Part shown: one piece after another, positions 19,901 through 44,018 of the stretch
Numbering within the stretch: position 1 is the first letter of the stretch
Layout of the letters: each line of letters opens with the position of its first letter
Assembly (NCBI RefSeq): GCF_009931435.1
Contig: NZ_CP043414.1
Length of the DNA: 64,000 bases
Strand: one strand, 5' to 3'
Origin: Escherichia coli
GTDB taxonomy: Bacteria > Pseudomonadota > Gammaproteobacteria > Enterobacterales > Enterobacteriaceae
Translations under genes and position numbers: made by a program
Notes under the pieces: generated by a model
Told to the model about the DNA's origin: nothing
The model's input: the letters and a program-made list of their open reading frames with translations, nothing else
Databases searched by the model: none

Positions 19901-20227
19901 ATGACTAAAAATACTCGTTTTTCCCCCGAAGTCCGTCAACGGGCAGTCCGTATGGTTCTGGAAAGTCAGAGCGAATATGACTCACAATGGGCGACAATTT
20001 GTTCCATTGCTCCAAAGATTGGCTGTACGCCGGAGACTCTGCGTGTCTGGGTTCGCCAGCATGAGCGGGATACCGGGGGCGGTGATGGAGGGCTCACCAC
20101 CGCTGAACGTCAGCGTCTGAAAGAGCTGGAACGTGAAAATCGTGAACTGCGCCGCAGTAACGATATCCTTCGCCAGGCTTCCGCTTATTTTGCGAAGGCG
20201 GAGTTCGACCGCCTCTGGAAAAAATGA
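19901..20227 (+). CDS. IS3-family transposase OrfA (HTH)
   Basis: 108 aa [21 protein letters not shown]...; A-rich slippery stretch (GGAAAAAATGA) at the orfA/orfB overlap. Confidence 0.85.
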
Positions 20228-22821: not shown

Positions 22822-22826
22822 ATGGA

Positions 22827-22860
22827 GAGCCGGATGCGCTGAAAGGTGCACGTCCGGTTC
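22827..22860 (+). ncRNA. Group II intron domain V (catalytic hairpin)
   Basis: GAGCCGGATGCGCTGAAAGGTGCACGTCCGGTTC: 34-nt hairpin with AGC triad and GAAA tetraloop, followed by domain VI with bulged A about 7 nt from the 3' splice site. Confidence 0.7.
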
Positions 22861-22883
22861 GGGGAGGAGAGGCAGGGAAATAG

Positions 22884-23384
<501 letters not shown>

Positions 23385-24330: not shown

Positions 24331-24855
24331 TGGCTTTACAAATCGCGGGCATTAGTCTGACATTATGCCCCTAAGTAGACAGCATTCTCACTAATGACGC
24401 GCTCCGGCGCAGACCTCCATCCCAATCCGACAGGAAGACATATTCGCGAAGAATACGGGCATCAGGGAACGTTTAATCCGTTTTCTGAGCTTAGATTTTT
24501 CTGTTCCTACCCAGACCGTGGATTTGGAATTCATTTTTTGTCAGGTCAATGCTAATCGTTAAAACGGCCATAACGCACCTCCACTGGAAGGTTTATCAGT
24601 AATATCCTACCGTTGCTTCATGGTAGGGGCGTCCATTCCATTATTATCGGTTTTCCTTTCTGTTTATAAATGAAAACGCCAGCTGTATTCAGGCTGGCGT
24701 CAGGGGAAATGAAGCCTGTTGAGTGAGATTCACCGGTTCTGGTGCAGAAGCTGCAGATGGCGCAGGGTAAGGACATCTTCTCTTGCCTGCTTAATACAGG
24801 ACAACAGTGCTGTTTCTGTGGTTAATGGCACTATACCCTGTATCACTGCATTGTC

Positions 24856-25059
24856 TTACAGCAACTGGTGAGGGCTGGCATAAGTTGCCGGTGTTTCGGT
24901 AGAGTCACGTTCATCCACCACGCGGAGTGAATCACCGTTTTCAGCGACCTTGTTAATCAGTTCAGCGAGATTAACACCATCGACGTCAACGACAATGCGC
25001 CCCATGTTCAGCGCCTGCACGTTAACGCTGTCGGCTTCCAGCGTCAGGGCCAGTTTCAT
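24856..25059 (-). CDS. yeeW: YeeW-like small protein downstream of cbtA
   Basis: 67 aa ORF overlapping cbtA stop by 4 bp; conserved position in CP4-type islands. Confidence 0.6.
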   Translation of the reverse strand: MKLALTLEADSVNVQALNMGRIVVDVDGVNLAELINKVAENGDSLRVVDERDSTETPATYASPHQLL

Positions 25060-25433
25060 CGTTTCGCCTCCGGATGCTTCCCCAGGGTAATGTTATTTAC
25101 CGTTCTGTAATTGTCGCGGGTCATCAGGCCTGTTGCCCGGCGAGCCCGGAGGATATCAATACTGTTTATTAACTGAGAGCGGGGACAAGTGCTGAATCCC
25201 GGCTGGTCGGTACGCACCAGCGCGTATTTTTCCACGAGAAAATTCACCGCATCACACAGTGAAATGCCAGCTTCAATATGCTGCTCAATCACACGTTCAT
25301 CGGCGAACGGTGTGTCATTCAGTGTAAGGCCGTAATGCTGGCCCAGTAGTCGGGAGAGCAGAGTCTGCCAGATGGTGACGGGGGACGGGCAGCTCGATGC
25401 CTCCCGTACGTGTGTATCGGGTAATGTTTTCAT
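25056..25433 (-). CDS. cbtA: Cytoskeleton-binding toxin CbtA (YeeV)
   Basis: 125 aa; CbtA/YkfI/YpjF family sequence; immediately downstream of cbeA. Confidence 0.85.
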   Translation of the reverse strand: MKTLPDTHVREASSCPSPVTIWQTLLSRLLGQHYGLTLNDTPFADERVIEQHIEAGISLCDAVNFLVEKYALVRTDQPGFSTCPRSQLINSIDILRARRATGLMTRDNYRTVNNITLGKHPEAKR

Positions 25434-25522
25434 ACTGAAGGTTTTCCTGATATGCAGAGATGAAAAATGGAAAAGTGGCGTGGTGAAAGCACCAGGCCGG
25501 AGCAGAAGGTTATTCCGGTGGT

Positions 25523-25891
25523 TTACTTTTTCGTTTCGGGCGTCGGATAAACAGCCAGATAAACGTAACCACCGCTACCGAGGGTGTCAGCTTTGCAGGT
25601 CAGACCTTTCGCATACAGCGTGACGGTATGCTGATGGCGGGGATTCAGTTCACCGCTGGTGAGCATGAGTTCCAGTTGTTTCATCAGCAGCGGAAAGGCC
25701 TGGTCCAGGTGGTACGCATCTGCATCGCTGAACAGGCCTCTGATACCGGCGCGGTCGGCAAGGTAATGCAGGCGGTTACCCTCCTGCACCAGACGTGCCC
25801 CGAAACAGGGCGTCACGGTGCAGGGCAGCCCCCACCAGGGGCGGTCGTGATTGTCGTCGGGAAGCATTGTCCCGGAGAGTGCGTCTGACAC
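25523..25891 (-). CDS. cbeA: Antitoxin CbeA (YeeU)
   Basis: 122 aa; YeeU/YafW/YfjZ family. Confidence 0.85.
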   Translation of the reverse strand: MSDALSGTMLPDDNHDRPWWGLPCTVTPCFGARLVQEGNRLHYLADRAGIRGLFSDADAYHLDQAFPLLMKQLELMLTSGELNPRHQHTVTLYAKGLTCKADTLGSGGYVYLAVYPTPETKK

Positions 25892-26053
25892 GATAAAATC
25901 CTCACAGAAAATCGGTTAAGAATGGTTTAACGATGACAGGTCAGCCGGCGCGCAGACCGCCTTCGGTAAAGGTGTATTCGTTTATGAGCAGGGCCTCATC
26001 CACAGCGGCGTCTGAGCTCAGCCAGTCGTACTCGTTTTCCGGGTGACGGAACA

Positions 26054-26275
26054 TCAGTTCAGGGTGACGCTCATCAGCCGGACATACGGGCCAAAACTGT
26101 CCTTACGGCGTTCTGCAAACACGGCCAGCACACCGGGAATATCCTGCACTTCACGACCGGTATACGCTTCAGTGCCACCGTGCCAGCGGTATTTGCCGGT
26201 ACAGAACGGAAAAAGACGGGATGTCGGATGTTGTTGGTGAATTCGCATGGCTTCACCACGGGTGATGATTTTCAT
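26054..26275 (-). CDS. yeeT: DUF987 protein YeeT
   Basis: 73 aa ORF in conserved position between yeeS and cbeA. Confidence 0.8.
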   Translation of the reverse strand: MKIITRGEAMRIHQQHPTSRLFPFCTGKYRWHGGTEAYTGREVQDIPGVLAVFAERRKDSFGPYVRLMSVTLN

Positions 26276-26337
26276 AGTGTGATGCCTCTGAAGACGGAAG
26301 ATAAAAGTGAAAACAGGTGTGATGTGGTTGTGACGGG

Positions 26338-26829
26338 TTAAAGCAGACCATGTTCGGCAAAGGAGAAAACCTGGCTGCCACCGACTATCAGATGGTCCGG
26401 CACCCGGATATCCACCAGGCCCAGTGCCTGTACCAGACGTTCCGTGATAAGGCGGTCTGCCTTGCTGGGTGTGACTTCACCGGACGGGTGATTGTGTGCC
26501 AGCACCACAGCAGCGGCATTGTGATACAGGGCGCGTTTAATCACTTCCCGGGGATGGACTTCCGTGCGGTTGATGGTGCCGGTGAAGAGGGTTTCACCGG
26601 CAATCAGCTGATTCTGGTTATTCAGATACAGCACCCGGAATTCTTCACGCTCCAGTCCCGCCATGTTCAGAATCAGCCATTCCCGTGCCGCACGGGTGGA
26701 GGTGAAGGCCACGCCGGGTTCATGAAGATGGCGGTCCAGGGTTTTCAGGGCCCGTTGAATGAGGCTGCGCTCACCGGGTGTCATCTCTCCGGGCAGAAAG
26801 GAAAGCTGCTGCATTGTCCCTGCCTCCAT
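26338..26829 (-). CDS. yeeS: RadC-like JAB-domain protein YeeS
   Basis: JAMM-type motif region (…VVLAHNHPSGEVTPSKADRLIT…); alternative start MQQLSF at 26814. Confidence 0.8.
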   Translation of the reverse strand: MEAGTMQQLSFLPGEMTPGERSLIQRALKTLDRHLHEPGVAFTSTRAAREWLILNMAGLEREEFRVLYLNNQNQLIAGETLFTGTINRTEVHPREVIKRALYHNAAAVVLAHNHPSGEVTPSKADRLITERLVQALGLVDIRVPDHLIVGGSQVFSFAEHGLL

Positions 26830-27315
26830 TCAGTCGATGATGCGCATAATGGCGCTGCATTCCGGATGCTGCAGGGCGTAATCCCGCAGCCGGTAATAAT
26901 GGACCGTCATGGCATAACACTCCGTACGACAGGCATGATGACTGTACGTCATCAGACAGGCAGCAATGCCAGCGGCTTCCGGGCTCATTTCAGCGCGGTT
27001 GCCGTTCATGGCATTGAACAGTACCCATGTTTCGTCATCATCGTCATCCGGTTCGGGTGCCATAAATGCCCCGCCGTTGTTCAGAGTGTACAGATTCCAG
27101 ATACCACCGCAGTAGTCTTCGCACAGACGGTCCATCCAGCCGAAAACACGGGGCTCCAGGGTCACCCACTGTGGAATGAGGCCAAAATGCTGCGGCCAGA
27201 AGCTGATGCGCTGTTCATCAGGGACTATGGTGGCAACCAGCTGAGGCTGGTCATTCCCTGATGCAGCGGTTACGGAAACAGAAGATGTGGTGGAATTATG
27301 TGAAATGGTTTTCAT
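26830..27315 (-). CDS. Antirestriction protein (ArdB/KlcA-like; YfjX/YafX family)
   Basis: 161 aa with acidic DDDDDETW stretch and family-typical C-terminal region; position upstream of radC-like gene. Confidence 0.75.
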   Translation of the reverse strand: MKTISHNSTTSSVSVTAASGNDQPQLVATIVPDEQRISFWPQHFGLIPQWVTLEPRVFGWMDRLCEDYCGGIWNLYTLNNGGAFMAPEPDDDDDETWVLFNAMNGNRAEMSPEAAGIAACLMTYSHHACRTECYAMTVHYYRLRDYALQHPECSAIMRIID

Positions 27316-27369
27316 GAAATGACTCCTTAAAGGACAAATAAATGCGTGGTTTTCAGGGTAATGGCTGAA

Positions 27370-28188
27370 TCAGCGCAGGCTCTCCAGCAGGGTTTCCGCC
27401 ATCACCCACAATGCGCGGTTGAGCTTAATGTCAGTGTCAATGCTGTGAATGGCACGGGTATGGATACGTTTTCCTTTAGCGCTGCGACCTGAAATTCCGC
27501 CTTTCAGCATATTCTCCTGAATGGTCTGATAAGCACTCCACAGGTCCTTACCGTAATCCTCCCGGCGTCGTGGCGTCAGAATGTCGGCGGTGGTGACGGG
27601 CTGATGTTCGTCACCATAACGGTAAGTCAGTGCCGCCTGTGCCAGCGCCTGGCGTGCCGGTGGCGGCAGAATCAGCGACTGCATGGCATCACGCTTTTCC
27701 TCAATCCGGTCAAAAACCCCCACCACCTCGTAAGCCCCTTCAATGACTCTGTCCACCACATTTCCCCGGTGCGGAACACGCACTTCCCCCAGAGACTGAC
27801 CACAGACGCATCCGTTCTGGCAGACGAACCTGAAGTAACCCGGCAGCATCTGGTAGCTGGAGGTACCGTCATGAGAGTTGAGCAGAATAATTTCAGGGAC
27901 ATGTTCTCCGTTTATCTCTCCGGCCCGCCGCAGACGCAGCATGTGTTTTGTGTATCCCCGGCGGCCCGGGTCGCGCACACGGGTCTGGCAGGCGAAGAAT
28001 GGCTGAAAGCCTTCCCGCTGCAGGCTTTCCAGTACGGTGATGGTGGGGATGTACGTATAGTTCTGGCTTCGGGACGTGTGTTTATCTTCCCCGAAAATCC
28101 CCGGCACATAGTGCATCAGTTCTTCGTGTGTCAGCGGACGGTCACGGCGTATCTGGTTCGCATAACCAAAACGACTGGCTAGTCGCAT
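27370..28188 (-). CDS. DUF932 domain protein (YafZ/YfjQ-like)
   Basis: 272 aa ORF in conserved island position; family assignment from recalled sequence features. Confidence 0.7.
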   Translation of the reverse strand: MRLASRFGYANQIRRDRPLTHEELMHYVPGIFGEDKHTSRSQNYTYIPTITVLESLQREGFQPFFACQTRVRDPGRRGYTKHMLRLRRAGEINGEHVPEIILLNSHDGTSSYQMLPGYFRFVCQNGCVCGQSLGEVRVPHRGNVVDRVIEGAYEVVGVFDRIEEKRDAMQSLILPPPARQALAQAALTYRYGDEHQPVTTADILTPRRREDYGKDLWSAYQTIQENMLKGGISGRSAKGKRIHTRAIHSIDTDIKLNRALWVMAETLLESLR

Positions 28189-28287
28189 AATTTGCTCCTT
28201 ATCGGTGGTTAAGATTTACTGGTGTAATAAATGAAAAAGCCACGTCTCCCGGAGAAGACGCGGCCTGATGGGTGAAATGAATGACGT

Positions 28288-28521
28288 TTATTGTCTGAGA
28301 AGACCGTCACTGGCGAGCCGCGTATTAAGCACCTTTCCGGCATCGGGTTCAGAATTCCGGCAGCGCCAGCGTCGCTGACCTTCCGCGTTGCGGATAACCC
28401 GACGGAAATGCATTCCCGGATCATCCTGGATAAACACATTGCGGTAAGCGGTTATGACAGCAACCGCCTGCCCGTATGAGAAAGATCCTTCAGCCAGGAC
28501 ATACTCTGTGTAACCCGGCAT
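28288..28521 (-). CDS. Small hypothetical protein (77 aa), possibly DUF905-like
   Basis: ORF only; fits a gap between DUF932 gene and downstream exported protein; weak support. Confidence 0.3.
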
Positions 28522-28599: not shown

Positions 28600-29055
28600 T
28601 CAGTTAACGTTTTTTCCGGAAACGGTAATCAGCAGTGGATGGTAGTCCTGGGGATTGAAAACCGATAACGGCAGACTGACACGATGGCCGTTACTTTCTT
28701 CAGTTGCTTTAATGATTTCGGTTGTGGCGACATTTTCCACGCACTCCGTTTCCAGAAATGCGTCTGTGGTTCGCGTGGCATTACTGTCACCAAAAGCTTC
28801 CGTTTCCATTTTTCTGGTCACCAGCGTCTGACCATATTTGTCTTTGAGTTGCAGAGTGATGGTGAGGGGGCCAAATCCTTCATCGTTTCCGCCATTATCC
28901 AGCCGGAACTGGTAAGCACAAATATTTCCCGGGAGCCATATCGTATCTGTATTGCGTATACTGATGTAACGTTGATCCTGTGCCCGGAGTGGGGCAGACC
29001 ACGTTAACCCCAGAATGAAGGCGGTAATCATGCAGGTTTTGAACAGGTGAATCAT
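28600..29055 (-). CDS. Hypothetical exported protein (signal peptide, 151 aa)
   Basis: N-terminal hydrophobic signal sequence ending LRA|QD; RBS-like GAGAGG upstream. Confidence 0.5.
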   Translation of the reverse strand: MIHLFKTCMITAFILGLTWSAPLRAQDQRYISIRNTDTIWLPGNICAYQFRLDNGGNDEGFGPLTITLQLKDKYGQTLVTRKMETEAFGDSNATRTTDAFLETECVENVATTEIIKATEESNGHRVSLPLSVFNPQDYHPLLITVSGKNVN

Positions 29056-29130
29056 GGTATTTACCTCTCTGAGTCATGACGATGACACTGACAAATCAGG
29101 TGATAAAGCGTAAAAGGCGCAGAATAGCCG

Positions 29131-31653
29131 TTATGCCGGTAACTCCGGGGGTAATGCTTCTTCCAGTCGGTTAACCATATTGCCGAGATGGGATGCATCA
29201 TATTCCATGACGGGGCGTTGCCTGATGATACTGACCACCAGTGGTTTGATTAACATATTGGTCGCGGCCCGTTGTTGTATACCGGCGGCGAAAATGATCT
29301 CCAGAGCATTCTGATCGATAACACGGGCCAGATTCTCGTTCAGATTTTCAATCTCATGTCCGGTCAGCAGGAAACTGCCGGCAAGCCATGTCACCTGCTC
29401 CTGAATCATTGCCAGAATTTTGACGCGATCTTCTTCAACCAGCGCTCCGGCAATTTTTCCTGATACAGCGGAGGCAATCATTCCCCCCAGAACACCGCCA
29501 ACCACACGCCCTGTCAGTGCACCAAATGGTCCCAGTGGACTGAACAGTATCCCGCCCGCCACTGACCCGACAGCTCCACCTGCCACACCGGAAGATGCCA
29601 CGGCAAGATTCCTGATGAACTGCGCACCGGAGATCCGTCCCCGCAACATTTTGATCATGTCAGGGCCGGTTGTGACAGCTACCAGTGCCAGAGATGTCAC
29701 CAGCGTACCCTTCATTACTTTGTTCAGGGCACTGATATTTCCTGCACCGGTCCCCTTCTGAAGAGCCAGTCGGACAGTCGGGCTGGCAGTCGAAAAATCA
29801 ATGTGCTTCAGCATACCCTGAACAACACTGAGCCGGTGGAGTTGCTGGGTTGTGACGTAGACAGCCAGTGTGCGGGTGAAGGTTTTTCCTGCCTGGACAG
29901 CAGCTGTCTGCAGGGCAGCATCGCGATCGCCGGTGCTGAGCCAGAAGACCGATGCCGTCAGGGCAAAACTGATCCCTCCGGCCGCCAGACTGACAACCGA
30001 ACCCTCGGCAATATCATAAGTGACCGATTCGATGGTCCCGAACCGGGTGATATTACGGGCCTGAGTATAAGTCAGATGTCCCCGACGAATCAGCCGGGAC
30101 GCTTCTGCGGGATCGGTTACACCGGGTACTTTACCTTCGCGGATCTTATTCCTCATGGTTTCAACAGCGCCGGCATACTGATCACGGGGGACTTCCAGTT
30201 GCATGGGGCCATTATTTCCCATGTAACGATACTGTCCGTTTTGTCCGTCGAATGCCGCACCGACGCTACGGGCTGCAGTTGAACAATATTTCGTCTGGAT
30301 TTCTGTTCCGCTGACCAGCCTGTCTGCTCCATTTCTGGCATTATTATCACCGAGGATCCGTGCGTTTTTCAGACGGACTCTGTCGACAATATGGTTTCCC
30401 CGTTCAGCGGCAAACCCATGTCCCTGCCCTCCGGAAGCAAACATTTTCTCATTTGTACTCCAGGTTTCCGGCAGTTTCATGAGAATCAGACCATTCGCCG
30501 TTGCATCGGAAATAAAGCTGTTGTAAGGGCGTTCATAAATTTCCTGACACAGTGTTTCTGTTTCGCGACAAAGAGAGGAGCAGTACCATTCCGGATCCGG
30601 CTTATGATTTTCCGGGGCATGATGTACTTCTGTCAGCCCGCAGGAGGCACAGATACGAAGCTCATCCACGTGATGGAATGATACAAAACGGCGACCTTCT
30701 GAAAAGGGATACCAGTCACCGCCGTCCAGGCAACGATCGAGAAAATCGTCATTTGCTTCCGGTGATAAATTCAGGCGGTTCCGGAAGAGCGTTTTCAGTT
30801 CATCAGGTGTGAATGACAGGTTCTCTTTCAACTGTTCGTTAAACCCTGCCATGTTTCTTTCATACCAGGCATTGTTCAGTAACCAGTTTCCGTCTGCCAG
30901 TTCAAATTCCCTCAGCTCTCCCCGGGAAATCCGTTGAGAAATGAGCGTCAGCCAGATGCGCTCCGTCAGTGAGTCAGGAAGGCTGTAATCGTTTTGCAAA
31001 CTGGTCAGCCACGATTTACTGTTGAGCACCGGTTGTTCTTCCAGTGTCTGGCTGATGGCACAGGTCAGTTTTTTCAGCGCCTGGATCTGGCTGGCCGCCC
31101 ATAGCAGCGTCACTAATGCAGCCAGCCAGTACAACAACCCGCCCCACCACATCAGTGACGGTGAAATATCGTACTGTAACGCGATCAATGGTGCGCATGC
31201 AGAACACGCCATAAGGAAAAAGGCAGTATAAAAACAGCAGTAATACCCGTTAATTTCCTTGCTGATATCTTCTGGTGTGATCCCGTTCTGCTGAATGTTT
31301 TTGATCTGCAGGGGAACAGCCAGCAGACCACCGGCGAGAGCGGTGGTCAGAATAAATTTCACAGAGTCAAAGGTGCGAGCCTCCAGCGCGATATGTTTAC
31401 CATCAAGTCCCCACATGAAGCTGATGATCATTCCGGCAATCGTCAGAAATACGCCTGCCAGCCAGCGAATATGGAACAACCGGGTTATGCGTTCGGTGAT
31501 ATAGCCAGCCAGTAAGGCCGGGCCGAACAGACACAGCAATATGAGCCCTGCCAGCGCAGAAGCCGTGCTGATTAATGCTCTGAACAAAAGGCGAAGAATG
31601 GCAAATCCTGCGATCAGCAGGATCAGCGCGCCGACTATCTGTAACATAGTCAC
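29131..31653 (-). CDS. yeeR: YeeR-like inner membrane protein (840 aa) with C-terminal glycine-zipper region
   Basis: Multiple N-terminal TM segments; C-terminal G/A-rich zipper-like segments; located between flu and the antirestriction/DUF932 cluster. Confidence 0.65.
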   Translation of the reverse strand: MTMLQIVGALILLIAGFAILRLLFRALISTASALAGLILLCLFGPALLAGYITERITRLFHIRWLAGVFLTIAGMIISFMWGLDGKHIALEARTFDSVKFILTTALAGGLLAVPLQIKNIQQNGITPEDISKEINGYYCCFYTAFFLMACSACAPLIALQYDISPSLMWWGGLLYWLAALVTLLWAASQIQALKKLTCAISQTLEEQPVLNSKSWLTSLQNDYSLPDSLTERIWLTLISQRISRGELREFELADGNWLLNNAWYERNMAGFNEQLKENLSFTPDELKTLFRNRLNLSPEANDDFLDRCLDGGDWYPFSEGRRFVSFHHVDELRICASCGLTEVHHAPENHKPDPEWYCSSLCRETETLCQEIYERPYNSFISDATANGLILMKLPETWSTNEKMFASGGQGHGFAAERGNHIVDRVRLKNARILGDNNARNGADRLVSGTEIQTKYCSTAARSVGAAFDGQNGQYRYMGNNGPMQLEVPRDQYAGAVETMRNKIREGKVPGVTDPAEASRLIRRGHLTYTQARNITRFGTIESVTYDIAEGSVVSLAAGGISFALTASVFWLSTGDRDAALQTAAVQAGKTFTRTLAVYVTTQQLHRLSVVQGMLKHIDFSTASPTVRLALQKGTGAGNISALNKVMKGTLVTSLALVAVTTGPDMIKMLRGRISGAQFIRNLAVASSGVAGGAVGSVAGGILFSPLGPFGALTGRVVGGVLGGMIASAVSGKIAGALVEEDRVKILAMIQEQVTWLAGSFLLTGHEIENLNENLARVIDQNALEIIFAAGIQQRAATNMLIKPLVVSIIRQRPVMEYDASHLGNMVNRLEEALPPELPA

Positions 31654-31767
31654 TCCGTGATGAATATCATGTTATTGTTAATGCCAGCGAATGTGGCGTT
31701 GAAGATCCGTTGCGCCGGTCCGGGTCCCGGTCATGATGACCGGGACCACAGAGAGGCGATGGTTCTG

Positions 31768-34700
31768 TCAGAAGGTCACATTCAGTGTGGCCTGACCGTT
31801 ATACCCTTCAGCGCTGCTGCCGCTGACGCTGTGGGCATAACCGGCCTGAACGCCCAGGGTGATATTTTCCCGGACACGGGCTTCCAGTCCGGCCTGCAGG
31901 TCCAGTGATGTGCCATTCTGTGAGGGAGAGAACGTCATCCCGCTGCCTGCAGTGGAAGTCCCCACACGCATATCTCCCCGGGAGCTGAAGGTGCGGATAA
32001 CAGAAGGCTGTACCCACCAGTTCACCGGTAATTCACTCACACTGTGTTTTGCACTGTCACGCAGGGGGGCACGGGATGAGGTGCCTTCGCCAAAGGTCAT
32101 ATCGTTGTGGCTGCCCAGACGGAAACCGGCACGCACATGTTGTGCACTGCCATGCCCGAACTTCACATAACCGGCGTTGTCCTTACCGTCATCCAGGGAA
32201 AGTCCCTGCCAGGTATACTGCAGTTGTGGCTCCAGCATCAGGTTGTCAGTGATACTGAAGGGCAGACCGGTTTCCAGTGAGCCCAGCCAGCCCCAGCCCC
32301 GGGCGCGGAAGTCGTTATTGTCCGATGACGCTTTCATGCTGTGGCGGGTTCCCTGTGCCACAATGTCAGCCCACAGGCCGGAGGACGTGTGTGTCAGATT
32401 CAGGTATCCGCCCAGGCTGCCGGCATCATCCCGGACCGTGCCGGCACGGGAGCCGTCATCATCCTTAACATCAACGGAAGAATGGCCAGCAGCACCATAT
32501 ACCCCCGCGGTCACAGACATACCGGCAACCTCTGTTCTCATCAGGTCACCCTCCAGACGGACGAATCCATAGCTGCCGCTGCTTTCCGGCGTGGCCCCAC
32601 GGGCAATACCGCCATTGTTATCGTGACCGAGATGACCGCCCTGAATGCTGAGACGGACGCTGTTGTTTTCACCATTTACACCGGTCTGATGGCTGCGGGA
32701 GCCTGCCACAATCCGGTCATAGTCCATTGCCTGTGTCAGCATGGAGGCATACAGGGGGACTTCTGCACGATAAGCATTTTCACTGCGCAGATACCAGCTC
32801 TCACCACTGTCCCGGTTGAGGGAGTAGTTAAAGGCACCGGCCTGCAGCCTGTTCCCCTGGACAAAGGCCCCTTCCTCCGTGGTGGCACCGTTAATGGCTT
32901 CCACCACCTGAATACCCTTACCGCTGGTCGCCAGCCCCGACGCACTGTTGCCGGCGTTCACCAGGTTCAGGATGGTTTTTCCGGTTGCCCTGCCGCCGTC
33001 AATGACCAGTCTGTCAGCATTGTTCTGTGCCATATCCGGGCGTACACGCAGGCTGATGGTGCCATTCTGTCCGTTCAGGTTTTTCACTTTCAGGGTTGCC
33101 GGTACGAACTTCCCTGTGCGGGTGGAGGTGAAATGAATCTGTCCGGCATGGCTGAGGTCATCCACCACCGACTGCACCGTGGCGTTATCGGGGATATTCC
33201 AGGTGGCACCGGAGGCGAGAGTGACATTCGTGGGGTCAATGGCACCGTTCAGCACAGTGCTGCCGGTCAGCTTCAGGGCTGTACCGCGCTGAGCAATGAC
33301 ATCCGTGGTGACGGTACTGTCGTTCAGCGTCAGCGTGCCTTCATTCAGGTTGACGGCTTTCTGGGTGAGTGTGGTGTTGCTGACAGTGAGTGTGCCACTT
33401 CCTGATTTTTCCACGCTGCCGTTACCGGTGAGAGAGCCTCCCTGCAGGAGTGCATCGCCTTCACGGATGGTCAGGGTATCGTTGTTCACCGTCTTCCCGG
33501 AAAGGGTAAGTATGGCGCCGTTATTCAGCGTGGTGGTGCCCGCCAGTGTGCCGCCCCTGGCGGTGAACAGTCCGCCATTTACCGTGGTATCCGTGGCCGT
33601 ATCACCGGCGTTCAGCGTGAATGAACTGCCTTTTTCCAGCATCAGGGCATCCGCCTGACCGCCTCCGATACTGAATGCCTTTCCGTCGCTCCGGGTACCA
33701 CTGACAGCGGCACCGGAATCGGCCAGCAGTACACCGCCATTTCCCATGGATACGGTGGTGGCGGTACCACCGTTGCGGACATCCAGCGTTCCGCCATCAT
33801 CCACGCGGGTATTAGTGGCTGTGTGTCCGGTCAGCACATCCAGGCGTCCGCCATTTTCCAGTACGACATTATCAGCTTTACCCTCCACAACCGAGAATGC
33901 TCCAAGGCGGTTTATGCCGGTAACGGTTGCAGCCGTACTGGTAACCAGTGCGCCGCCCTGCTTCAGGGTGACATTCGTGGCTGTACCACCGGCGTCCACC
34001 TGCAGTCTGCCCTTCTGATTAACGGTGGTATTCCCGGCCACACCCCCGTTTTTGACAATCTGCCAGCCGTCACTGTTCACAACAGTGTCAGACGCTGTAC
34101 CGCCGTTGTGCACATACTGGTATCCCCCATTCAGCGTGGTATCCAGTGCGTGACCATGTACAGTCTGGTCGCCGCCGGCATAAACCACAGTGGTATTTGC
34201 CGTTCCTTCAGTTCTCACAATCTGGCGACCGTTTTTATTGATGGTTGTGCGTACGGCATCCCCGCGAACAAACTGCCCGGTATCACCGTTTTCTGCATCC
34301 GGTCCCCCTTCCGCCCCGGTATTAACAACGGTATCCGTTGCCACTGTACCGGGCTTGACGACCTGCCAGCCCTTATCATTAATGACGGTTCCTGTGGCTA
34401 TCGCCCCCTCATGCATCCACTGTTCGCCACCATTCAGCGTGGTGTTCACTGCCCGTCCCTGAAGGCTCTGTCCGCCTCCGGCACTGATAACCGTGTCTGA
34501 GACACTTCCACCGGGGTTCACTCTCTGAAGACCACCACTGGTGACAGTCGTTTTGTTGGCTGTTCCGCCATCCTGTACCCATTGCCCGCCGGTATTGGCC
34601 TCGTTATCCGGCCCATACTCCAGCCCGGTACTGATGGTCATTCCGTTGGTCGTACCGAAGACAATCTGGTTGTCATGATTTTCCAGTGTTCCGCCGTTCA

Positions 34701-34887
34701 CGGTTTCACCTGCCTGTACAATACTGTCAGCAGCCAGGGCCGGGACTGACGTGACAGCAGCAAGAGACAGAGCAACCGCCACACCGGCGCCTTTTCCCCG
34801 TGAGCGGGCCAGTTCGGAGGCCACCACCAGGGTGCCCGTAATGTGATTCCATACCAGCCTGTAGCTGGTGTTCAGATGTCGTTTCAT
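31768..34887 (-). CDS. flu: Antigen 43 autotransporter adhesin (self-associating autotransporter)
   Basis: 1039 aa from MKRHLNTSYRLVWNHITGTLVVASELA extended signal peptide; repetitive beta-helix passenger; C-terminal beta-barrel ending …ATLNVTF. Confidence 0.9.
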   Translation of the reverse strand: MKRHLNTSYRLVWNHITGTLVVASELARSRGKGAGVAVALSLAAVTSVPALAADSIVQAGETVNGGTLENHDNQIVFGTTNGMTISTGLEYGPDNEANTGGQWVQDGGTANKTTVTSGGLQRVNPGGSVSDTVISAGGGQSLQGRAVNTTLNGGEQWMHEGAIATGTVINDKGWQVVKPGTVATDTVVNTGAEGGPDAENGDTGQFVRGDAVRTTINKNGRQIVRTEGTANTTVVYAGGDQTVHGHALDTTLNGGYQYVHNGGTASDTVVNSDGWQIVKNGGVAGNTTVNQKGRLQVDAGGTATNVTLKQGGALVTSTAATVTGINRLGAFSVVEGKADNVVLENGGRLDVLTGHTATNTRVDDGGTLDVRNGGTATTVSMGNGGVLLADSGAAVSGTRSDGKAFSIGGGQADALMLEKGSSFTLNAGDTATDTTVNGGLFTARGGTLAGTTTLNNGAILTLSGKTVNNDTLTIREGDALLQGGSLTGNGSVEKSGSGTLTVSNTTLTQKAVNLNEGTLTLNDSTVTTDVIAQRGTALKLTGSTVLNGAIDPTNVTLASGATWNIPDNATVQSVVDDLSHAGQIHFTSTRTGKFVPATLKVKNLNGQNGTISLRVRPDMAQNNADRLVIDGGRATGKTILNLVNAGNSASGLATSGKGIQVVEAINGATTEEGAFVQGNRLQAGAFNYSLNRDSGESWYLRSENAYRAEVPLYASMLTQAMDYDRIVAGSRSHQTGVNGENNSVRLSIQGGHLGHDNNGGIARGATPESSGSYGFVRLEGDLMRTEVAGMSVTAGVYGAAGHSSVDVKDDDGSRAGTVRDDAGSLGGYLNLTHTSSGLWADIVAQGTRHSMKASSDNNDFRARGWGWLGSLETGLPFSITDNLMLEPQLQYTWQGLSLDDGKDNAGYVKFGHGSAQHVRAGFRLGSHNDMTFGEGTSSRAPLRDSAKHSVSELPVNWWVQPSVIRTFSSRGDMRVGTSTAGSGMTFSPSQNGTSLDLQAGLEARVRENITLGVQAGYAHSVSGSSAEGYNGQATLNVTF

Positions 34888-35069
34888 CAGCTTTTCCTTA
34901 GATTGAGGGTGAATAAAAAAGCCGGTACCCACAAACGTGGATACCGGCAGGTAAAGGGTTACAGTGCCGGAGGTCCGGCTGTGGGAGTTTCTGAATTGTG
35001 GTTCTGTTGTTCCCTGAATGTCTTTCTGTACGTATCTGTGCATGTTACTGACAAAGGTTATTATTAGCT

Positions 35070-35112
35070 TATCGATCGATATAAACGATCGATAAAATAG
35101 ATATCGATCGTT
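35070..35112 (-). promoter_or_regulatory. agn43 (flu) phase-variation switch: OxyR-binding region with three Dam GATC sites
   Basis: GATC at 35074-35077, 35087-35090 and 35106-35109 within 36 bp in the flu 5' region. Confidence 0.7.
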
Positions 35113-35214
35113 TTATTCTATTATTGAGCTATTGCACGGACAAGAGAGACAGTAACGAAAACAGTGCTTTTGTGAGCAGACTCAGAGTCAGGGAGGGCAT
35201 CAGTCACGACAGGT

Positions 35215-36126
35215 TCAGAAGAAAATCCAGTTCCATACCGCACGGGCAACAGAGACCACCGTGTCACGAACAGCGCGCAGGGCCGTACGGACAACAGAGG
35301 CAACACAGACGCTCTCCGCTGTGTCAAATATCCGGTCCACCGCACCGGTAAACTGTTCACGGGCCTGAGAGCGGACAGATTCCGTGCGCAGCTCGTCCTG
35401 CAGTCGGGTCATCAGGGGACTGGCGGCATGGTCGGGAAGCGCTGTCATGAGCGCACTGACCAGCGTATCCAGTTCCCAGCCGGTGCGGGCCGATACGGCC
35501 ACAACCGGATGTACGGGCCGGAACAGACGGAATACCGCCTCCGTTTTTTCGCGAATATTCTGTGCCTGTGCAGGAGAAGGCTGAATACCGGCCATATCCC
35601 ATTCATGGCAGGGCTCCGTTTTGTCGGCCTGCGTCACCACAAACAGTACCCGCTGATGTCCCCGGTGCAGGATGTGTCGCCAGAAATACTCATCCACAGA
35701 CAGGGCACGGTCATCGGCTTTAATCAGCCACAGTACCAGGTCAAGTTCAGGCAGAATGTCACGGTACAGGGCCTCATACTCTGCATCCCTGTCCCGGCTC
35801 TCGCCCACCCCGGGCAGGTCAGTGATAACCATGCTGTGACCGTGGCCACTCAGACGGAAGCGCCGTACTTCCCGGGTGCCGGCGTGAACATCACTGACCG
35901 GGGTGACCTCCCCCTGAAACAGTGCATTACAGAGTGAGGATTTACCGGCCCCGCTTTTACCCATAATGCCAATCACGGGTTCGTGACGGGTGAGTTTGCG
36001 CAGATGTTCCAGGATGTGACGGGAAAGCGAGTAAGGCAGGGAGGAGAGCGGTTTTTCAATTGCCTCAATGGCATCAGACGGATTCATACATGTATTCCCG
36101 GTGAAAAAAGACAAAACCCCGCGCAC
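35215..36126 (-). CDS. yeeP: YeeP-family GTPase (P-loop; YkfA/YfjP-like)
   Basis: P-loop GIMGKSGAGKSS and DxxG (DLPGVGE); probable start at MNPSDAIEAIEK (36087). Confidence 0.75.
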   Translation of the reverse strand: MRGVLSFFTGNTCMNPSDAIEAIEKPLSSLPYSLSRHILEHLRKLTRHEPVIGIMGKSGAGKSSLCNALFQGEVTPVSDVHAGTREVRRFRLSGHGHSMVITDLPGVGESRDRDAEYEALYRDILPELDLVLWLIKADDRALSVDEYFWRHILHRGHQRVLFVVTQADKTEPCHEWDMAGIQPSPAQAQNIREKTEAVFRLFRPVHPVVAVSARTGWELDTLVSALMTALPDHAASPLMTRLQDELRTESVRSQAREQFTGAVDRIFDTAESVCVASVVRTALRAVRDTVVSVARAVWNWIFF

Positions 36127-37315
36127 CGGAAAGGTGGCGGGGGATTCACGGAGATAATATCTGTCTGAAATTGTTTTTAATCGATGGGATTGTTGCGTAT
36201 TAACATGAAGGAGATCAGGACTTATCCGTTACTGGGTGATCTCCTTCCATGAAAATACGCCGTTATTGTTAAACAGCAGGCTGATTTCTCCGTAAAGGGG
36301 AAAATATTTATCGGCTGCATGATTATCAGGTGTGTCTGTGTTTACTGCTGTGAGTATTTTTCAGTGTATTGTGGGGGAGATGTCAGTGGGAGATATTAAA
36401 TTTACATTTATAATTATCTTACTTCTTCTGTGTGTTTTTTATAAGAGTGCACACGTAATGATATCTGTTGATACCATGTGGTTAAGTGTTTCCCTTCCTG
36501 GTCATGCGTAATGATTAAATGCTTTTGTGACACCATTCTTCCGGTCTGAATATTTATCCCGTTCTTTTTTATTTGTGCAGTGATACTGTCGGAAGAGAAT
36601 TCAGTAATGTGAGGTGTCCTGGTCAGGATAATATCTGCTGAGATATTATTAGTTGAGTGTGTTTTTACTGAGCAAAAGCTGGCTTTTAATTCCTGTACTG
36701 AAACGCTGTTGCTCGTCCGGGGTTAACTGAAACTGGATGATGATGTAAAATGAAGGCTGTTTTTGTGTTTGTCGAAGAAGTGTTATTTTAATCCATTCTC
36801 ATCATTGGCTGGCGATTATACAGAAGTATTTGAAGAAAAAATGGTGCATTTTATCTGCGTCAGCAGGGAGGAAGTATTTTATTGATGTATCAGTATTAAA
36901 TGGTTTTTGTTATTTAGAAATATGTCATCCTGTCCATAGAATATTGTACTCAGCATTCAGTGCAGGAACTGTAGTCTTCTTTATTTTATTCTTCTTCAGG
37001 AGGGGGGATTCCTGAAGGCGTTATTCCCGGTGTTCTGTTTATGATTCATCCCGGCAGGAAACCGGTATCTGCAATACCCGGGATGATGCTTTTTGTTCGT
37101 ACGTGGTTGTGTAAAATTTGAATAGTGGATGTGCTCTGAAGGGAAGGAGGGGACACACAGATTCATTTTGTCTTTCTTCAGCAGCAAAACACACTGTGGT
37201 TATTATTTAACCATTAAATCAACAAAAATTTTTACCTCATATTGATTTGACTGCTATTTTTGCTATTAATAGCCAGAATTGCAGTACTTTTATATCTGTG
37301 TGTAGTGAGGTTACT

Positions 37316-40017: not shown

Positions 40018-41727
40018 GAGAATGTTCCTCCGGATGTTGTTAAACCAGCCGGTGTGGTCATGAAAACAACGCACCACCTTCACCGGCATAACAACCGGGG
40101 AGAAACGTAAAAAATAATCGGGAATGTGACCGCCAGGAGATAAACGGGGAGGTTACGGTGGCTGAGCCGTACCGGTATGCCGGGTGGTTGTTACGAAACG
40201 ATGCTTCCGCACGCGCGCGCGATAAAGAAGGGATGATTTTCGTGAGGAAGAGGGGAAAACTGGCGTTCTGATAATTGCAGAGTTATTTACGGGGCGGTTA
40301 CGATGGGGCAGACCGTGTCCGGTGGGCAGGCGACAGGTATCACCGATGGGATAAGACTGTCTGATTGGTATTATAAATATATAAGAGAGATCAAACACAT
40401 GAGATCAAATACATGAGTTCATATATGTGAAATAAACACGGTGAGTGTGATCAGTGGGCATGATGAGAACGCAGTAGCAACAGACTGCGCTATCCCTGAT
40501 AGCTGGCGTATAACCTGCGTATATAAAACGTACCAGCAACGCACGTGAACAGAGTGCATTAAGCATCCGTCGTTGACACCGACCTGGTGAGTGACAGTCT
40601 GAGAGACCGGTTAAGTGGTGGTACGGGAGTAATGAGTTTGGGGTGGGTACCAGAATGCCAGTCTGGCGGTATGCTGACAGTATCACGTTAATTGCAGCAT
40701 AAAGTGATGAGAGGCTAATGGAAGTTAAAACCAGAGCAGTTCCGTCGTTGTTCATCCCGGGAGACGCTGGAAAAAGTGATTTCCCACACGCGTTATAAGC
40801 TTACTCCAGCGGAGATGGAAGCCTTCAACTCTGCGGTCGATCACCGACTGGCAGAACTGACAATGAACAAGCTTTACGATCGTGTTCCCGCTTCAGTCTG
40901 GAAATATGTCATCTGAGCGTTCGGTAATCACAACTGCATCGCGCCAGGTGTTATCCGCTTTGTGATTCTTATTGGCTCTTCTCAGGTTATTAAAAGCTGA
41001 ATATGTTCCTGTTGTCGGGAACCAGGATAATACCGGGAGCGTTAAGCGGTATAGCGACAACAAAGAATTCGAAATCAAAAGGGAATGGTGCCGGAGGCGT
41101 GGGCGGTAATAGGCTGATTTTCAGGTATTACCGGCTTACAACGTGTGGTTGATATTGAGGGGCTGTGAGTTTCGCGTATTTGTCAGAAACCCAGATGAGT
41201 TTTCCTGTATGGGACGAAATAAGGCAGCGGCAATACCTGGAAAATTTAATATGGTATGAAGGAGAACCTGTCGGTTACGCTTAATATACACGGTACACTG
41301 TCAGCTCAGGGGATACATGAACCGTTATCTCACCAGCTACACAGTATACACACACTGACGCTGACAGTAGTCAGCAGGACCACAATAATCAGCGCCAGCA
41401 GTATGGTAACGATACGGTCTGTATTCCGGTAGTAGCCGAAGGGGTCGACAGAACCACAATACGGGCAACACACTGTATTATTAGTAATCGCGTTTCCACA
41501 GTCCCTGCACTTCTTTTGCGTATCACCATAACTCCCTCCTCACAGCCTTACCCGTAACCGGTTTTTTACATTAAAAAACAACGCTGAAAATTCAACCGTC
41601 AGTCCGGAGACGACCGTTCGGGTTATCACAGAGTGCCTGAGACAGTGTCCTGCCGGAGGTCACTTCAGGGACTCTGCGCATTTTTTACGACGTGGCTATT
41701 CCGTATGAACCATACGGAGATTTAACC

Positions 41728-42297
41728 ATGACCTACAAATACAACCCCTTCTGGCAGCAACGTATTCGTGAGACGGTGCGGCACGCACTGAATGTTCATC
41801 CCCGCCTGACGGCATTGCGGGTTGACCTGCGTCTCCCGGATGTACCGGCAGCAACGGACGCAGCTGTGATATCCCGCTTCATCAATGCCCTGAAAGCCCG
41901 AATCGACGCTTACCAGAAACGTAAGCATCGGGAAGGTAAACGCGTGCATCCCACCACCCTGCATTACGTCTGGGCCCGGGAGTTTGGGGAGTTCAAAGGT
42001 AAAAAACACTATCACCTGATGCTGCTGGTCAACCGGGATACCTGGTGTCGTGCCGGTGATTACCGCGCTCCGGAGTCTCTGGCCGGGATGATTAAACAGG
42101 CGTGGTGCAGTGCCCTGGGAGTGGATGTCGGGTGCCATGCCACGCTGGTGCATTTTCCGGCCTGGCCGGCGGTGTGGCTGGCGCGTAATGATGACACCGG
42201 CTTTCAGCAGGTGCTGGAACGTGCTAACTATCTGGCGAAGGAGCATACCAAAGCTCACTGCACCGGTGAGCGCAACTTTGGCTGCAGTCGTGGCTGA
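41728..42297 (+). CDS. YagK/YfjJ-family protein (inovirus Gp2-like domain)
   Basis: 189 aa from MTYKYNPFWQQRIRE with GGAG RBS; family assignment from recalled features. Confidence 0.55.
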   Translation: MTYKYNPFWQQRIRETVRHALNVHPRLTALRVDLRLPDVPAATDAAVISRFINALKARIDAYQKRKHREGKRVHPTTLHYVWAREFGEFKGKKHYHLMLLVNRDTWCRAGDYRAPESLAGMIKQAWCSALGVDVGCHATLVHFPAWPAVWLARNDDTGFQQVLERANYLAKEHTKAHCTGERNFGCSRG

Positions 42298-42462
42298 GCC
42301 AGACAGACGAGTTATCTGACTTCAGTGTGATGACGTGTTCACGGCCACCACACTGATTTTCCCTTATGAGACTGAACTGAAACCGCCATTCACACCTGAC
42401 CACGCTGCCCGTACCGGGACGGCTGTTGCCTGCGTGTCGTCTGACGGTAAGGAACATATACT

Positions 42463-42855
42463 ATGTACGCAAAATCCTTTCTCGCTCTTGATGGCAACGG
42501 ACGTCTGACGGGCGCCCGTACAGCACAGGCCGCACCTTATGCTCACTACACCTGCCACTTGTGTGGCAGTGCACTCAGATACCATCCGCAATACGACACT
42601 GAACTTCCCTGGTTTGAACACACTGACGACAGGCTGACAGAGCACGGTCAACAGTGCCCTTATGTCAGGCCGGAGCGCAGAGAAATACAGTTGATTAAAC
42701 GTCTGCAGCAATTCGTACCGGATGCCTTACCCGTGGTGCGTAAAGCCAGCTGGCACTGCAGACAATGTCACCACGATTATTATGGGGAGCGGTACTGCAC
42801 ACACTGCCAGACCGGAGGTTTCAGTCTTCCCCGGACAGCTCAGCAACTGTCTTGA
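42463..42855 (+). CDS. Zinc-ribbon protein with CxxC…PWFEH motif (paralog 1)
   Basis: 130 aa; CHLCGSAL…LPWFEH…WHCRQCHHDYYGERYCTHC; paralogous to ORF at 44019-44423. Confidence 0.55.
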   Translation: MYAKSFLALDGNGRLTGARTAQAAPYAHYTCHLCGSALRYHPQYDTELPWFEHTDDRLTEHGQQCPYVRPERREIQLIKRLQQFVPDALPVVRKASWHCRQCHHDYYGERYCTHCQTGGFSLPRTAQQLS

Positions 42856-42864
42856 ACGTAAAAA

Positions 42865-43851
<987 letters not shown>

Positions 43852-44018
43852 ATGCGTTATGGCGTACTGACAACTGTTCGGGTTTCAGATGAGTGGCTCA
43901 GTGTATGCGCCATTCGCTGAGCTACGGGCTATGAACCCCTTGAGGGATCGGGCTGCATACACCTTGCCAAATCTAATCACAGTTATTTTAACCAATTGTC
44001 AAGATACAAGGAGGAGAT

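What the first reader, a model, noticed from the sequence alone, without database searches (positions are those of the whole stretch)
35060..35115. Intact agn43 phase-variation switch (three GATC sites in the OxyR-binding region)
Three Dam methylation sites lie within 36 bp immediately upstream of flu, matching the established Dam/OxyR epigenetic ON/OFF switch for antigen 43. The isrC small RNA described between yeeP and flu in K-12 may also lie in the yeeP-flu interval (34888-35214). The flu gene itself is full length (1039 aa).
Basis: partly seen in the sequence, partly recalled or inferred. Interest (0 to 1): 0.4.

Follow-up and report, generated by a model that had tools for sequence, protein, structure and literature searches.

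The report
Known agn43 Dam–OxyR phase switch
This is the well-studied on/off switch of the E. coli surface adhesin antigen 43, in which DNA methylation and the repressor OxyR compete for three GATC sites; here it is intact and almost identical to the laboratory K-12 version, so it is ordinary.

Summary
GATC sites lie at 35074, 35087 and 35106. They are the only ones in 4.5 kb, upstream of a full-length 1039-aa flu/agn43 gene on the minus strand (34887-31768). The regulatory region differs from K-12 MG1655 at one base (35105), and GATC spacing is identical. A cluster of three GATCs is not rare by chance, so homology carries the argument. The sites sit at +1 to +36 of the transcript, just after a sigma-70 promoter. 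They overlap the window's best OxyR-consensus match.

IsrC (Rfam IS102, 253 bits) is not a separate neighbour. It starts at the first GATC and ends at an intrinsic terminator 28 nt before the flu ATG, so it is the terminated agn43 leader. Promoter, GATCs and terminator are conserved in 11 diverse alleles. Full-length yeeR and irmA follow, giving the published OxyR-repressed agn43-yeeR-irmA operon that K-12 has lost. dam and oxyR are present in a genome matching the window.

This is already known biology; methylation states were not testable. Two side observations: agn43 coding sequences are almost GATC-free in 13 alleles, and a leader reading frame crosses the terminator in all 11 alleles.

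The parts
35138..35143 (-). agn43 promoter -35 hexamer TTGTCC
   Evidence: This is the only sigma-70-like site in 34700-35500, with a 17-nt spacer. It is conserved in 10 of 11 alleles.
35115..35120 (-). agn43 promoter -10 hexamer TAGAAT
   Evidence: Found. AGAAT is invariant in all 11 alleles and the first T is present in 10 of 11.
35106..35109 (.). Promoter-proximal GATC (GATC-I); its G (35109) is the inferred transcription start
   Evidence: Located. The K-12 isrC annotation starts at the equivalent G, 222 nt before the flu ATG. 5' RACE in strain EC958 placed the start 228 bp before the ATG (PMC4807369), and alleles of that type have 6 more leader nucleotides.
35105..35105 (.). The single difference from K-12 in the regulatory region (coding-strand G here, A in K-12), directly 3' of GATC-I
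   Evidence: Seen. G occurs in 8 of 11 alleles. It falls at an N position of the OxyR half-site. It makes the GATC-I and GATC-II arms a perfect 12-bp inverted repeat (+ strand 35083-35113).
35087..35090 (.). Middle GATC (GATC-II), +20 to +23
   Evidence: Located; invariant in 11 alleles.
35074..35077 (.). Promoter-distal GATC (GATC-III), +33 to +36
   Evidence: Located; invariant in 11 alleles.
35075..35111 (.). Best match to the OxyR tetramer consensus (14 of 20 specified positions); it overlaps all three GATCs. A second 14/20 register lies one half-site (22 bp) further on, at 35053-35089.
   Evidence: 14/20 is the top score in the 64-kb window and is reached at only 3 positions, two of them here.
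34915..35109 (-). IsrC / IS102 RNA, which is the agn43 5' leader from +1 to the leader terminator (195 nt by the K-12 annotation; the Rfam match spans 35111-34908)
   Evidence: Rfam RF00124 full-length match, 253.5 bits against a gathering score of 46. The leader folds with z = -5.1.
34911..34948 (-). Intrinsic terminator inside the leader: a 12-bp stem (34948-34921) followed by a T run, ending 28 nt before the flu ATG
   Evidence: Found. Conserved in 11 alleles, with a U.G pair changed to U-A in some. [quoted passage not shown]
34885..34899 (-). flu ribosome-binding site (AAGGA, 34899-34895) and ATG (34887-34885)
   Evidence: Read from the sequence. The RefSeq start in an identical genome is given.
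31768..34887 (-). flu/agn43, 1039 aa, intact
29131..31647 (-). Full-length yeeR (838 aa); K-12 YeeR (510 aa) is a truncated copy
   Evidence: 506/507 identity over the K-12 part. ORF listed; RefSeq annotation.
28600..29055 (-). irmA (151 aa), the last gene of the operon
   Evidence: Matches PDB 5EK5 (IrmA) at E 2.8e-83. agn43-yeeR-irmA are cotranscribed and OxyR-repressed (PMC4807369).
28537..28575 (-). Intrinsic terminator after irmA, the likely operon end
   Evidence: 12-bp stem plus T run. No terminator-like site lies on this strand between flu and irmA.
35215..36087 (-). Upstream GTPase-family gene (intact yeeP; a pseudogene in K-12), which bounds the regulatory interval

Best explanation
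Window 35053-35143 (minus strand) is the cis element of the classical Dam/OxyR epigenetic phase-variation switch of agn43 (flu).

What the sequence shows: a sigma-70 promoter (TTGTCC, 17 nt, TAGAAT) starts transcription at or next to the first GATC. The three GATCs lie at +1, +20 and +33, inside a roughly 37-bp OxyR tetramer site.

What follows from the established K-12 model, by homology: when the GATCs are unmethylated, OxyR binds, blocks transcription and shields the sites from Dam (OFF). When Dam methylates them first, OxyR cannot bind and the promoter fires (ON). Each replication produces hemimethylated DNA and reopens the competition, so the two states are heritable but reversible.

A second checkpoint follows. 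Transcripts either stop at the leader terminator 28 nt before the ATG, which yields the 195-nt IsrC/IS102 RNA, or read through.

Readthrough in this strain should express three genes, not one: agn43, full-length yeeR and irmA, up to the terminator at about 28540.

Shown here: sequence identity, element positions, conservation, and presence of dam and oxyR. Inferred: OxyR binding, methylation states, switching and cotranscription in this strain.
For: - One mismatch to K-12 across the whole regulatory interval, with identical GATC spacing.
- A single promoter-like site in the interval, placed so that the -10 ends 5 nt before GATC-I.
- The start site agrees with the K-12 isrC annotation and with EC958 5' RACE (PMC4807369), once the 6-nt leader length difference is allowed for.
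- The best OxyR-consensus score in the window falls on the GATCs.
- The -10, the three GATCs, their spacing and the leader terminator are conserved in 11 alleles, including Nissle agn43 and O157 cah. The 19/13 spacing is kept in 12 of 13 alleles.
- IS102 matches over its full length.
- flu is intact. yeeR and irmA are intact with no terminator-like site between them.
- dam and oxyR are 100% identical to K-12 in strain 504239, whose chromosome matches the window at 100% over 24 kb. Both genes are present in 5425 of 5426 genomes.
- The mechanism is described in PMC4872104, PMC2909390, PMC3764049 and PMC13337833. The leader termination/antitermination step is stated in PMC5389530.
Against: - Nothing in the sequence contradicts this reading.
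- No methylation, binding or expression data exist for this allele.
- The 14/20 consensus match is modest. The OxyR footprint is taken from literature I could not open (Haagmans 2000; Wallecha 2002).
- The G/A difference next to GATC-I could alter Dam or OxyR kinetics.
- Three GATCs within 36 bp is not improbable by chance on its own.
Confidence: 0.92

Rival explanations
1. The switch is present but behaves differently from K-12 because of the G (K-12 A) directly 3' of GATC-I. The change could shift ON/OFF switching rates or bias the locus toward one phase, by altering Dam kinetics, OxyR affinity or the 5' leader fold.
For: The base flanks a Dam target and lies inside the OxyR site. It turns the GATC-I and GATC-II arms into a perfect 12-bp inverted repeat. 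Sequence flanking a GATC can affect Dam processivity; this has been implicated for pap but not for agn43 (PMC2909390).
Against: The position is unspecified in the OxyR consensus. G is the majority state, in 8 of 11 alleles, and both alleles are common: 432 versus 488 genomes. agn43 of UPEC EC958 is strongly OxyR-repressed (PMC4807369), though its base at this position was not checked here.
Confidence: 0.1
2. IsrC is an independent, trans-acting small RNA gene that merely neighbours flu, and not the agn43 leader.
For: It is annotated as an ncRNA in K-12 and is an Rfam sRNA family. Knockdown with dCas13a changed lycopene yield (PMC10783499).
Against: It begins at the agn43 start site and contains all three switch GATCs. 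It ends at the terminator 28 nt before the flu ATG. No other promoter-like site exists between it and flu. PMC5389530 describes an isrC-flu transcript and antitermination. A trans function for the terminated leader is not excluded.
Confidence: 0.05
3. The GATC cluster is a chance feature of an AT-rich intergenic region and has no regulatory role here.
For: Triples of GATC within 36 bp are expected about once per 64 kb, and a second one exists at 4166-4186.
Against: The region is near-identical to the experimentally characterised K-12 region. The three sites and their spacing are invariant across alleles whose flanks have diverged to 74-88%. They coincide with the promoter and with the top OxyR-consensus score.
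Confidence: 0.01

Closest known systems
agn43 (flu) Dam/OxyR phase-variation switch of E. coli K-12 MG1655 (Henderson & Owen 1999; Haagmans & van der Woude 2000; Waldron 2002; Wallecha 2002)
   Same: Same locus at the CP4-44 site. Same promoter, same three GATCs with identical spacing, same leader and terminator. Only 1 mismatch across the whole yeeP-flu regulatory interval. Ag43 is 98% identical.
   Different: One base next to GATC-I differs (G versus A). Upstream yeeP is intact here but a pseudogene in K-12. Downstream yeeR is full length and irmA is present here, whereas K-12 has a truncated yeeR and no irmA.
agn43-yeeR-irmA operon of uropathogenic E. coli (EC958, CFT073; PMC4807369)
   Same: Same gene order, and intact yeeR and irmA follow agn43. 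The inferred start site matches their 5' RACE position. OxyR repression is expected through the same site.
   Different: The window allele is the K-12-type leader (222 nt) in an ETEC-like background (identical to strains 504239 and TW11681), not the 228-nt leader type seen in Nissle and similar alleles. Cotranscription was not tested for this allele.
IS102 / IsrC RNA (Rfam RF00124; Chen et al. 2002) and the agn43 leader terminator (Wallecha et al. 2014)
   Same: Full-length covariance-model match between yeeP and flu. It ends at the leader terminator.
   Different: None of substance. The report stresses that this 'sRNA' and the switch are one transcription unit.
Other Dam/OxyR epigenetic switches: Salmonella/P22 gtr (PMC2909390), Salmonella opvAB (PMC4856963), phage Mu mom
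   Same: GATCs lie inside OxyR half-sites. Methylation and OxyR binding exclude each other.
   Different: agn43 has a single repressor site overlapping the start of transcription. gtr and opvAB have alternative upstream OxyR site pairs, with 4 GATCs, that give activation or repression.
pap-family Lrp/Dam switches
   Same: Heritable methylation patterns set by competition between Dam and a DNA-binding protein after replication.
   Different: A different protein (Lrp/PapI), two GATC boxes 102 bp apart, and no sequence relation.

Membership tests
agn43 Dam/OxyR phase-variation switch | Three GATC sites with the K-12 spacing (19 and 13 nt start to start) in the agn43 regulatory region | tested here: met
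   The spacing is kept in 12 of 13 alleles.
agn43 Dam/OxyR phase-variation switch | An OxyR binding sequence overlapping the three GATCs | tested here: met
   Identical to K-12 except at one unspecified position. It holds the top consensus score in the window, 14/20, at 35075-35111. Actual binding was not tested.
agn43 Dam/OxyR phase-variation switch | The OxyR site overlaps the promoter and transcription start, so that binding represses | tested here: met
   The -10 lies at 35120-35115. The start is at GATC-I, by the K-12 isrC annotation and by 5' RACE in PMC4807369.
agn43 Dam/OxyR phase-variation switch | An intact Ag43-family autotransporter gene downstream | tested here: met
   1039 aa with no stops. 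NF033177 scores 1872 bits against a cut-off of 1200.
agn43 Dam/OxyR phase-variation switch | Dam and OxyR encoded by the host | tested here: met
   Neither gene is in the window. Both are 100% identical to K-12 in strain 504239, which matches the window at 100% over 24 kb. Both are present in 5425 of 5426 E. coli genomes.
agn43 Dam/OxyR phase-variation switch | The GATCs are unmethylated in OFF cells and methylated in ON cells, and methylation abolishes OxyR binding | not testable with these tools
   Needs methylation-aware sequencing or MboI/DpnI assays, plus gel shifts.
agn43 Dam/OxyR phase-variation switch | Reversible heritable ON/OFF switching at about 1e-3 per generation, lost in dam or oxyR mutants | not testable with these tools
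   A phenotype. The literature values are for K-12 (PMC3764049, PMC4872104).
IS102 / IsrC RNA (Rfam RF00124) | Covariance-model score above the gathering threshold, over the full length | tested here: met
   253.5 bits against 46, model positions 1-206 of 206.
IS102 / IsrC RNA (Rfam RF00124) | Located between yeeP and flu, on the same strand as flu, ending in an intrinsic terminator | tested here: met
agn43-yeeR-irmA operon (PMC4807369) | Gene order agn43, yeeR, irmA on one strand, with no intervening terminator | tested here: met
agn43-yeeR-irmA operon (PMC4807369) | Cotranscription and OxyR repression of irmA | not testable with these tools
   Shown by RT-PCR and western blots in EC958 and CFT073 only.

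The most novel reading that the evidence does not exclude
The switch may be kept in a selected GATC-free zone. agn43/cah coding sequences of 13 alleles (82-100% nucleotide identity) hold 0, 0, 0, 0, 0, 0, 0, 0, 0, 0, 0, 1 and 2 GATCs, where synonymous-codon shuffles expect 6-10. GATC is the first or second most depleted of all 256 tetramers in six alleles. The next gene, yeeR, is GATC-rich. So the three regulatory GATCs are the only Dam/SeqA/MutH targets in about 4.5 kb.

This isolation could tune the Dam-versus-OxyR race, by removing processive Dam entry or SeqA tracts nearby. It could also lower mismatch-repair efficiency over the variable adhesin domain.

Separately, a leader reading frame that crosses the terminator in all 11 alleles might be the unexplained antitermination device.
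Probability: 0.15. Interest if true: 0.45.

Novelty: already known. Interest (0 to 1): 0.12.

Why it matters
The value is for annotation, not discovery. The strain carries a complete, probably phase-variable agn43-yeeR-irmA unit, so Ag43-mediated aggregation/biofilm and the secreted cytokine-receptor mimic IrmA should be expressed in only a subpopulation. Anyone measuring these phenotypes, or using Ag43 or IrmA as antigens, has to allow for that. The analysis also makes clear that the annotated sRNA IsrC is the terminated leader of this transcript. If the side observations hold (GATC-free coding sequence, leader frame across the terminator), they give cheap, testable ideas about how the switch is insulated and how the leader terminator is overcome.

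Tried and rejected
- Primary agn43 papers were not held in the library (Wallecha 2002 PMC135096; Wallecha 2003 PMC151510; Kaminska 2010 PMC2838033; Henderson & Owen 1999 PMC93626; Wallecha 2014 PMC4135670). Footprint limits and the minimal region (about -16 to +42, as I recall) therefore rest on memory. The mechanism is cited from secondary open papers.
- I tested whether GATC clustering alone is significant. It is not, so that argument was dropped.
- I scanned one genome per species (GTDB) for the switch core. The full 27-base pattern gave 0 hits. The 18-base core gave 12 hits in unrelated taxa, about the chance number. The Serratia ureilytica hit has two GATCs in an intergenic region with no autotransporter nearby. 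So there is no sign of the switch outside E. coli in that set, though the exact-pattern search would miss diverged copies.
- A scan of viral contigs for Ag43 relatives gave one partial locus that was of no use.
- NCBIfam gave no family for YeeR or IrmA. They were identified by comparison with K-12 and with PDB 5EK5 instead.
- RNA hairpin 1 of the leader (GATC-II/III arms) pairs well here. In the alleles that differ in its outer positions, my reading of the alignment is that those outer pairs break and only the CGATCG cores stay paired. Its conservation is therefore better explained at the DNA level (OxyR/Dam) than as RNA structure. No pair-count tool was run.
- The 1091-aa ORF as the true flu start was rejected. 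The RBS and the annotated start are at 34887, and the upstream ATG lacks a Shine-Dalgarno sequence and is not conserved in position.

Full report
**Observation.** The window has GATC at 35074-35077, 35087-35090 and 35106-35109, a 36-bp span as reported. There is no other GATC from 31707 to 36213. flu lies on the minus strand, from ATG 34887 to stop 31768, and encodes 1039 aa. It is 1022/1039 identical to K-12 Flu and scores 1872 bits against the NCBIfam Ag43/Cah model, cut-off 1200. The mechanical ORF list shows 1091 aa because an in-frame ATG at 35043 precedes the real start. Identical RefSeq genomes annotate the start at 34887. A cluster of three GATCs is not improbable in itself. There are two such triples in the window and about 1.1 are expected, and the broader pattern test found 1 against 1.28 expected. 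The case therefore rests on homology and context.

**Identity of the region.** Aligned to K-12 MG1655 (locus L001), the whole interval from the end of yeeP to the flu start has one mismatch. At window 35105 the coding strand has G and K-12 has A, directly 3' of the promoter-proximal GATC.

Both versions are common. The exact 70-nt window allele occurs in 432 complete E. coli genomes and the K-12 allele in 488. A more sensitive search finds a switch-like region in 2193 of 5426 genomes.

**Anatomy, minus strand.** The only sigma-70-like promoter in the interval is TTGTCC (35143-35138), 17 nt, TAGAAT (35120-35115). The K-12 isrC annotation starts at the G of the first GATC, 222 nt before the flu ATG. 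5' RACE in UPEC EC958 put the start 228 bp before the ATG (PMC4807369), and alleles of that leader type carry six extra leader nucleotides. Both lines point to 35109 as +1. The three GATCs are therefore at +1, +20 and +33 and are transcribed.

I scored the whole window with the OxyR consensus ATAGnTnnnAnCTAT-N7-ATAGnTnnnAnCTAT. This is Toledano's consensus from my own knowledge; PMC2909390 quotes the half-site. The top score, 14 of 20, occurs at only three positions. Two of them are here, at 35075-35111 and 35053-35089, one half-site apart. The G/A difference falls on an unspecified consensus position.

**IsrC.** Rfam IS102, the family built on the E. coli yeeP-flu RNA, matches 35111-34908 on the minus strand over its full length. 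The score is 253.5 bits against a gathering score of 46. The RNA begins at the agn43 start, contains all three GATCs, and ends at an intrinsic terminator. The terminator has a 12-bp stem at 34948-34921 followed by a T run to 34915, 28 nt before the ATG. No other promoter-like site lies between it and flu. IsrC is therefore the prematurely terminated agn43 leader, not a separate neighbour. [quoted passage not shown] The leader folds well (z = -5.1).

**Conservation.** I aligned eleven regulatory regions: window, K-12, seven further agn43 alleles including Nissle 1917, a degraded copy, and O157 cah. In all of them the core of the -10 (AGAAT; the first T in 10 of 11), AAAAC, the three GATCs, their spacing and the terminator hairpin are conserved, while the flanks diverge. 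G follows the first GATC in 8 of 11.

In a set of 13 full-length alleles, the 19/13 spacing is kept in 12. The exception, strain E21, has an IS21 transposase gene annotated directly upstream of agn43, and the triplet is absent. 'Intact' is therefore a meaningful statement.

From my own reading of the alignment (no pair-count tool was run), the outer pairs of the first leader hairpin break in the alleles that differ at those positions. That fits constraint at the DNA level rather than on RNA structure.

**What the switch controls here.** Downstream of flu lie a full-length yeeR (31647-29131, 838 aa) and irmA (29055-28600). K-12's 510-aa YeeR is a truncated copy, 506/507 identical. irmA matches PDB 5EK5 at E 2.8e-83. 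On this strand there is no terminator-like site until a strong one just after irmA, at 28575-28547. This is the agn43-yeeR-irmA operon shown to be cotranscribed and OxyR-repressed in UPEC (PMC4807369). K-12 has lost the distal part.

The window is 100% identical over 24 kb to E. coli 504239, TW11681 and others, and the island sits at the K-12 CP4-44 site. dam and oxyR are not in the window. Both are 100% identical to K-12 in strain 504239 and are present in 5425 of 5426 genomes.

**Mechanism.** By homology with K-12 (PMC4872104, PMC2909390, PMC3764049, PMC13337833), the switch works as follows.
- Unmethylated GATCs let OxyR bind across +1. This represses transcription and shields the sites from Dam (OFF).
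- Methylated GATCs exclude OxyR (ON).
- Replication produces hemimethylated DNA and reopens the competition.

What is shown here is the cis anatomy, its conservation and the presence of the trans factors. Binding, methylation states, switching and cotranscription in this strain are inferred.

**Rivals.**
- A kinetic effect of the G/A base is possible but unsupported (about 0.1).
- IsrC as an independent gene is contradicted by its anatomy (0.05), though a trans role for the terminated leader is not excluded.
- A chance cluster is excluded by the homology.

**Side observations.**
- *GATC depletion in agn43.* flu has no GATC in 3120 nt, where synonymous-codon shuffles give a mean of 8.1 and never fewer than 3. 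Across 13 alleles the counts are zero in eleven, one in one and two in one, against 6-10 expected. GATC is the first or second most depleted of 256 tetramers in six alleles (z -3.2 to -4.0). In yeeR it ranks 233rd, slightly enriched. GATC is known to be under-represented in mobile elements generally (PMC4659465). That is the mundane explanation, but it does not account for the contrast with yeeR.
- *A leader reading frame across the terminator.* One reading frame crosses the leader terminator and is open for 51-82 codons, with an upstream ATG, in all 11 alleles. It ends at a TAA inside the flu Shine-Dalgarno, ends at a TGA overlapping the ATG, or (window, K-12, 47-1826) runs into flu. No Shine-Dalgarno precedes these ATGs and other frames are also fairly open, so this is only suggestive. 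Wallecha et al. 2014, which I could not read, may already cover it.

**Verdict.** The finding is correct and is textbook biology: an intact agn43 Dam/OxyR switch in its K-12-type allele, with IsrC as its leader, in front of a complete agn43-yeeR-irmA operon. Novelty: already known. Interest is low.

Noticed in passing
window 31768-34887 (flu) and 35215-36087 (yeeP); loci L012-L014, L031-L038: agn43/cah coding sequences are almost free of GATC. Of 13 alleles at 82-100% identity, 11 have none and the other two have 1 and 2, against 6-10 expected from synonymous-codon shuffles. GATC is the first or second most depleted tetramer. The upstream GTPase gene has 0-1, while yeeR just downstream has 20. 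The three switch GATCs are the only Dam sites in 4.5 kb.
   Followed up: partly
window 35043-34888 (minus strand); alignment A2: An ATG at +67 of the leader is in frame with flu, giving the 1091-aa ORF. In all 11 alleles one frame crossing the leader terminator is open for 51-82 codons with an upstream ATG. It ends at a TAA in the flu Shine-Dalgarno, ends at a TGA overlapping the ATG, or fuses to flu. This might be a translation-coupled antitermination device, or it might be chance.
   Followed up: partly
window 28600-31647: yeeR is full length (838 aa against 510 in K-12) and irmA (cytokine-receptor mimic, PDB 5EK5) is present. The phase switch therefore probably governs three genes in this strain.
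   Followed up: yes
window 34681-34887 (first 69 codons of flu): 13 of the 17 amino-acid differences from K-12 Ag43 fall in the first 69 residues (the extended signal peptide and the start of the passenger domain), while the rest is near-identical. This looks like a recombination breakpoint.
   Followed up: no
window 35083-35113: The G at 35105 makes the GATC-I and GATC-II arms a perfect 12-bp inverted repeat (AAACGATCGATA / TATCGATCGTTT). K-12 has a mismatch there. All three sites then read CGATCG.
   Followed up: partly
window 24157-28419 and 40878-43946: There are two further GATC deserts, of 4262 and 3068 bp, longer than any gap in 300 simulations (maximum 2669). The first covers the DUF932/antirestriction/yeeS/yeeT/cbeA/cbtA module of the island.
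   Followed up: no
L032 (E. coli E21, NZ_CM143892.1): An otherwise intact agn43 allele (95% identical) lacks the three-GATC triplet. An IS21 transposase gene (istA) is annotated directly upstream, so this copy is probably not under Dam/OxyR control.
   Followed up: no
window 4166-4186: This is the only other triple of GATC within 36 bp in the window (GATC at 4166, 4171 and 4183). It was not examined.
   Followed up: no
window 20182-20298, 22825-22911, 8112-8235, 10974-11048, 51606-51678, 54015-54087, 58572-58644: Other Rfam matches in the window: an ALIL pseudoknot (IS3 frameshift site), a group II intron domain next to an ltrA-type reverse transcriptase, the his operon leader, sRNA STnc240, and three tRNA genes (tRNA-Asn by the RefSeq annotation of the matching genome).
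   Followed up: no
L027 1388-1406 (Serratia ureilytica): The agn43-like core CGATCGTTAATATCGATCG occurs in an intergenic region next to an ATAGAAAATGGCTAT OxyR-like half-site, with no autotransporter nearby. It is probably chance.
   Followed up: partly
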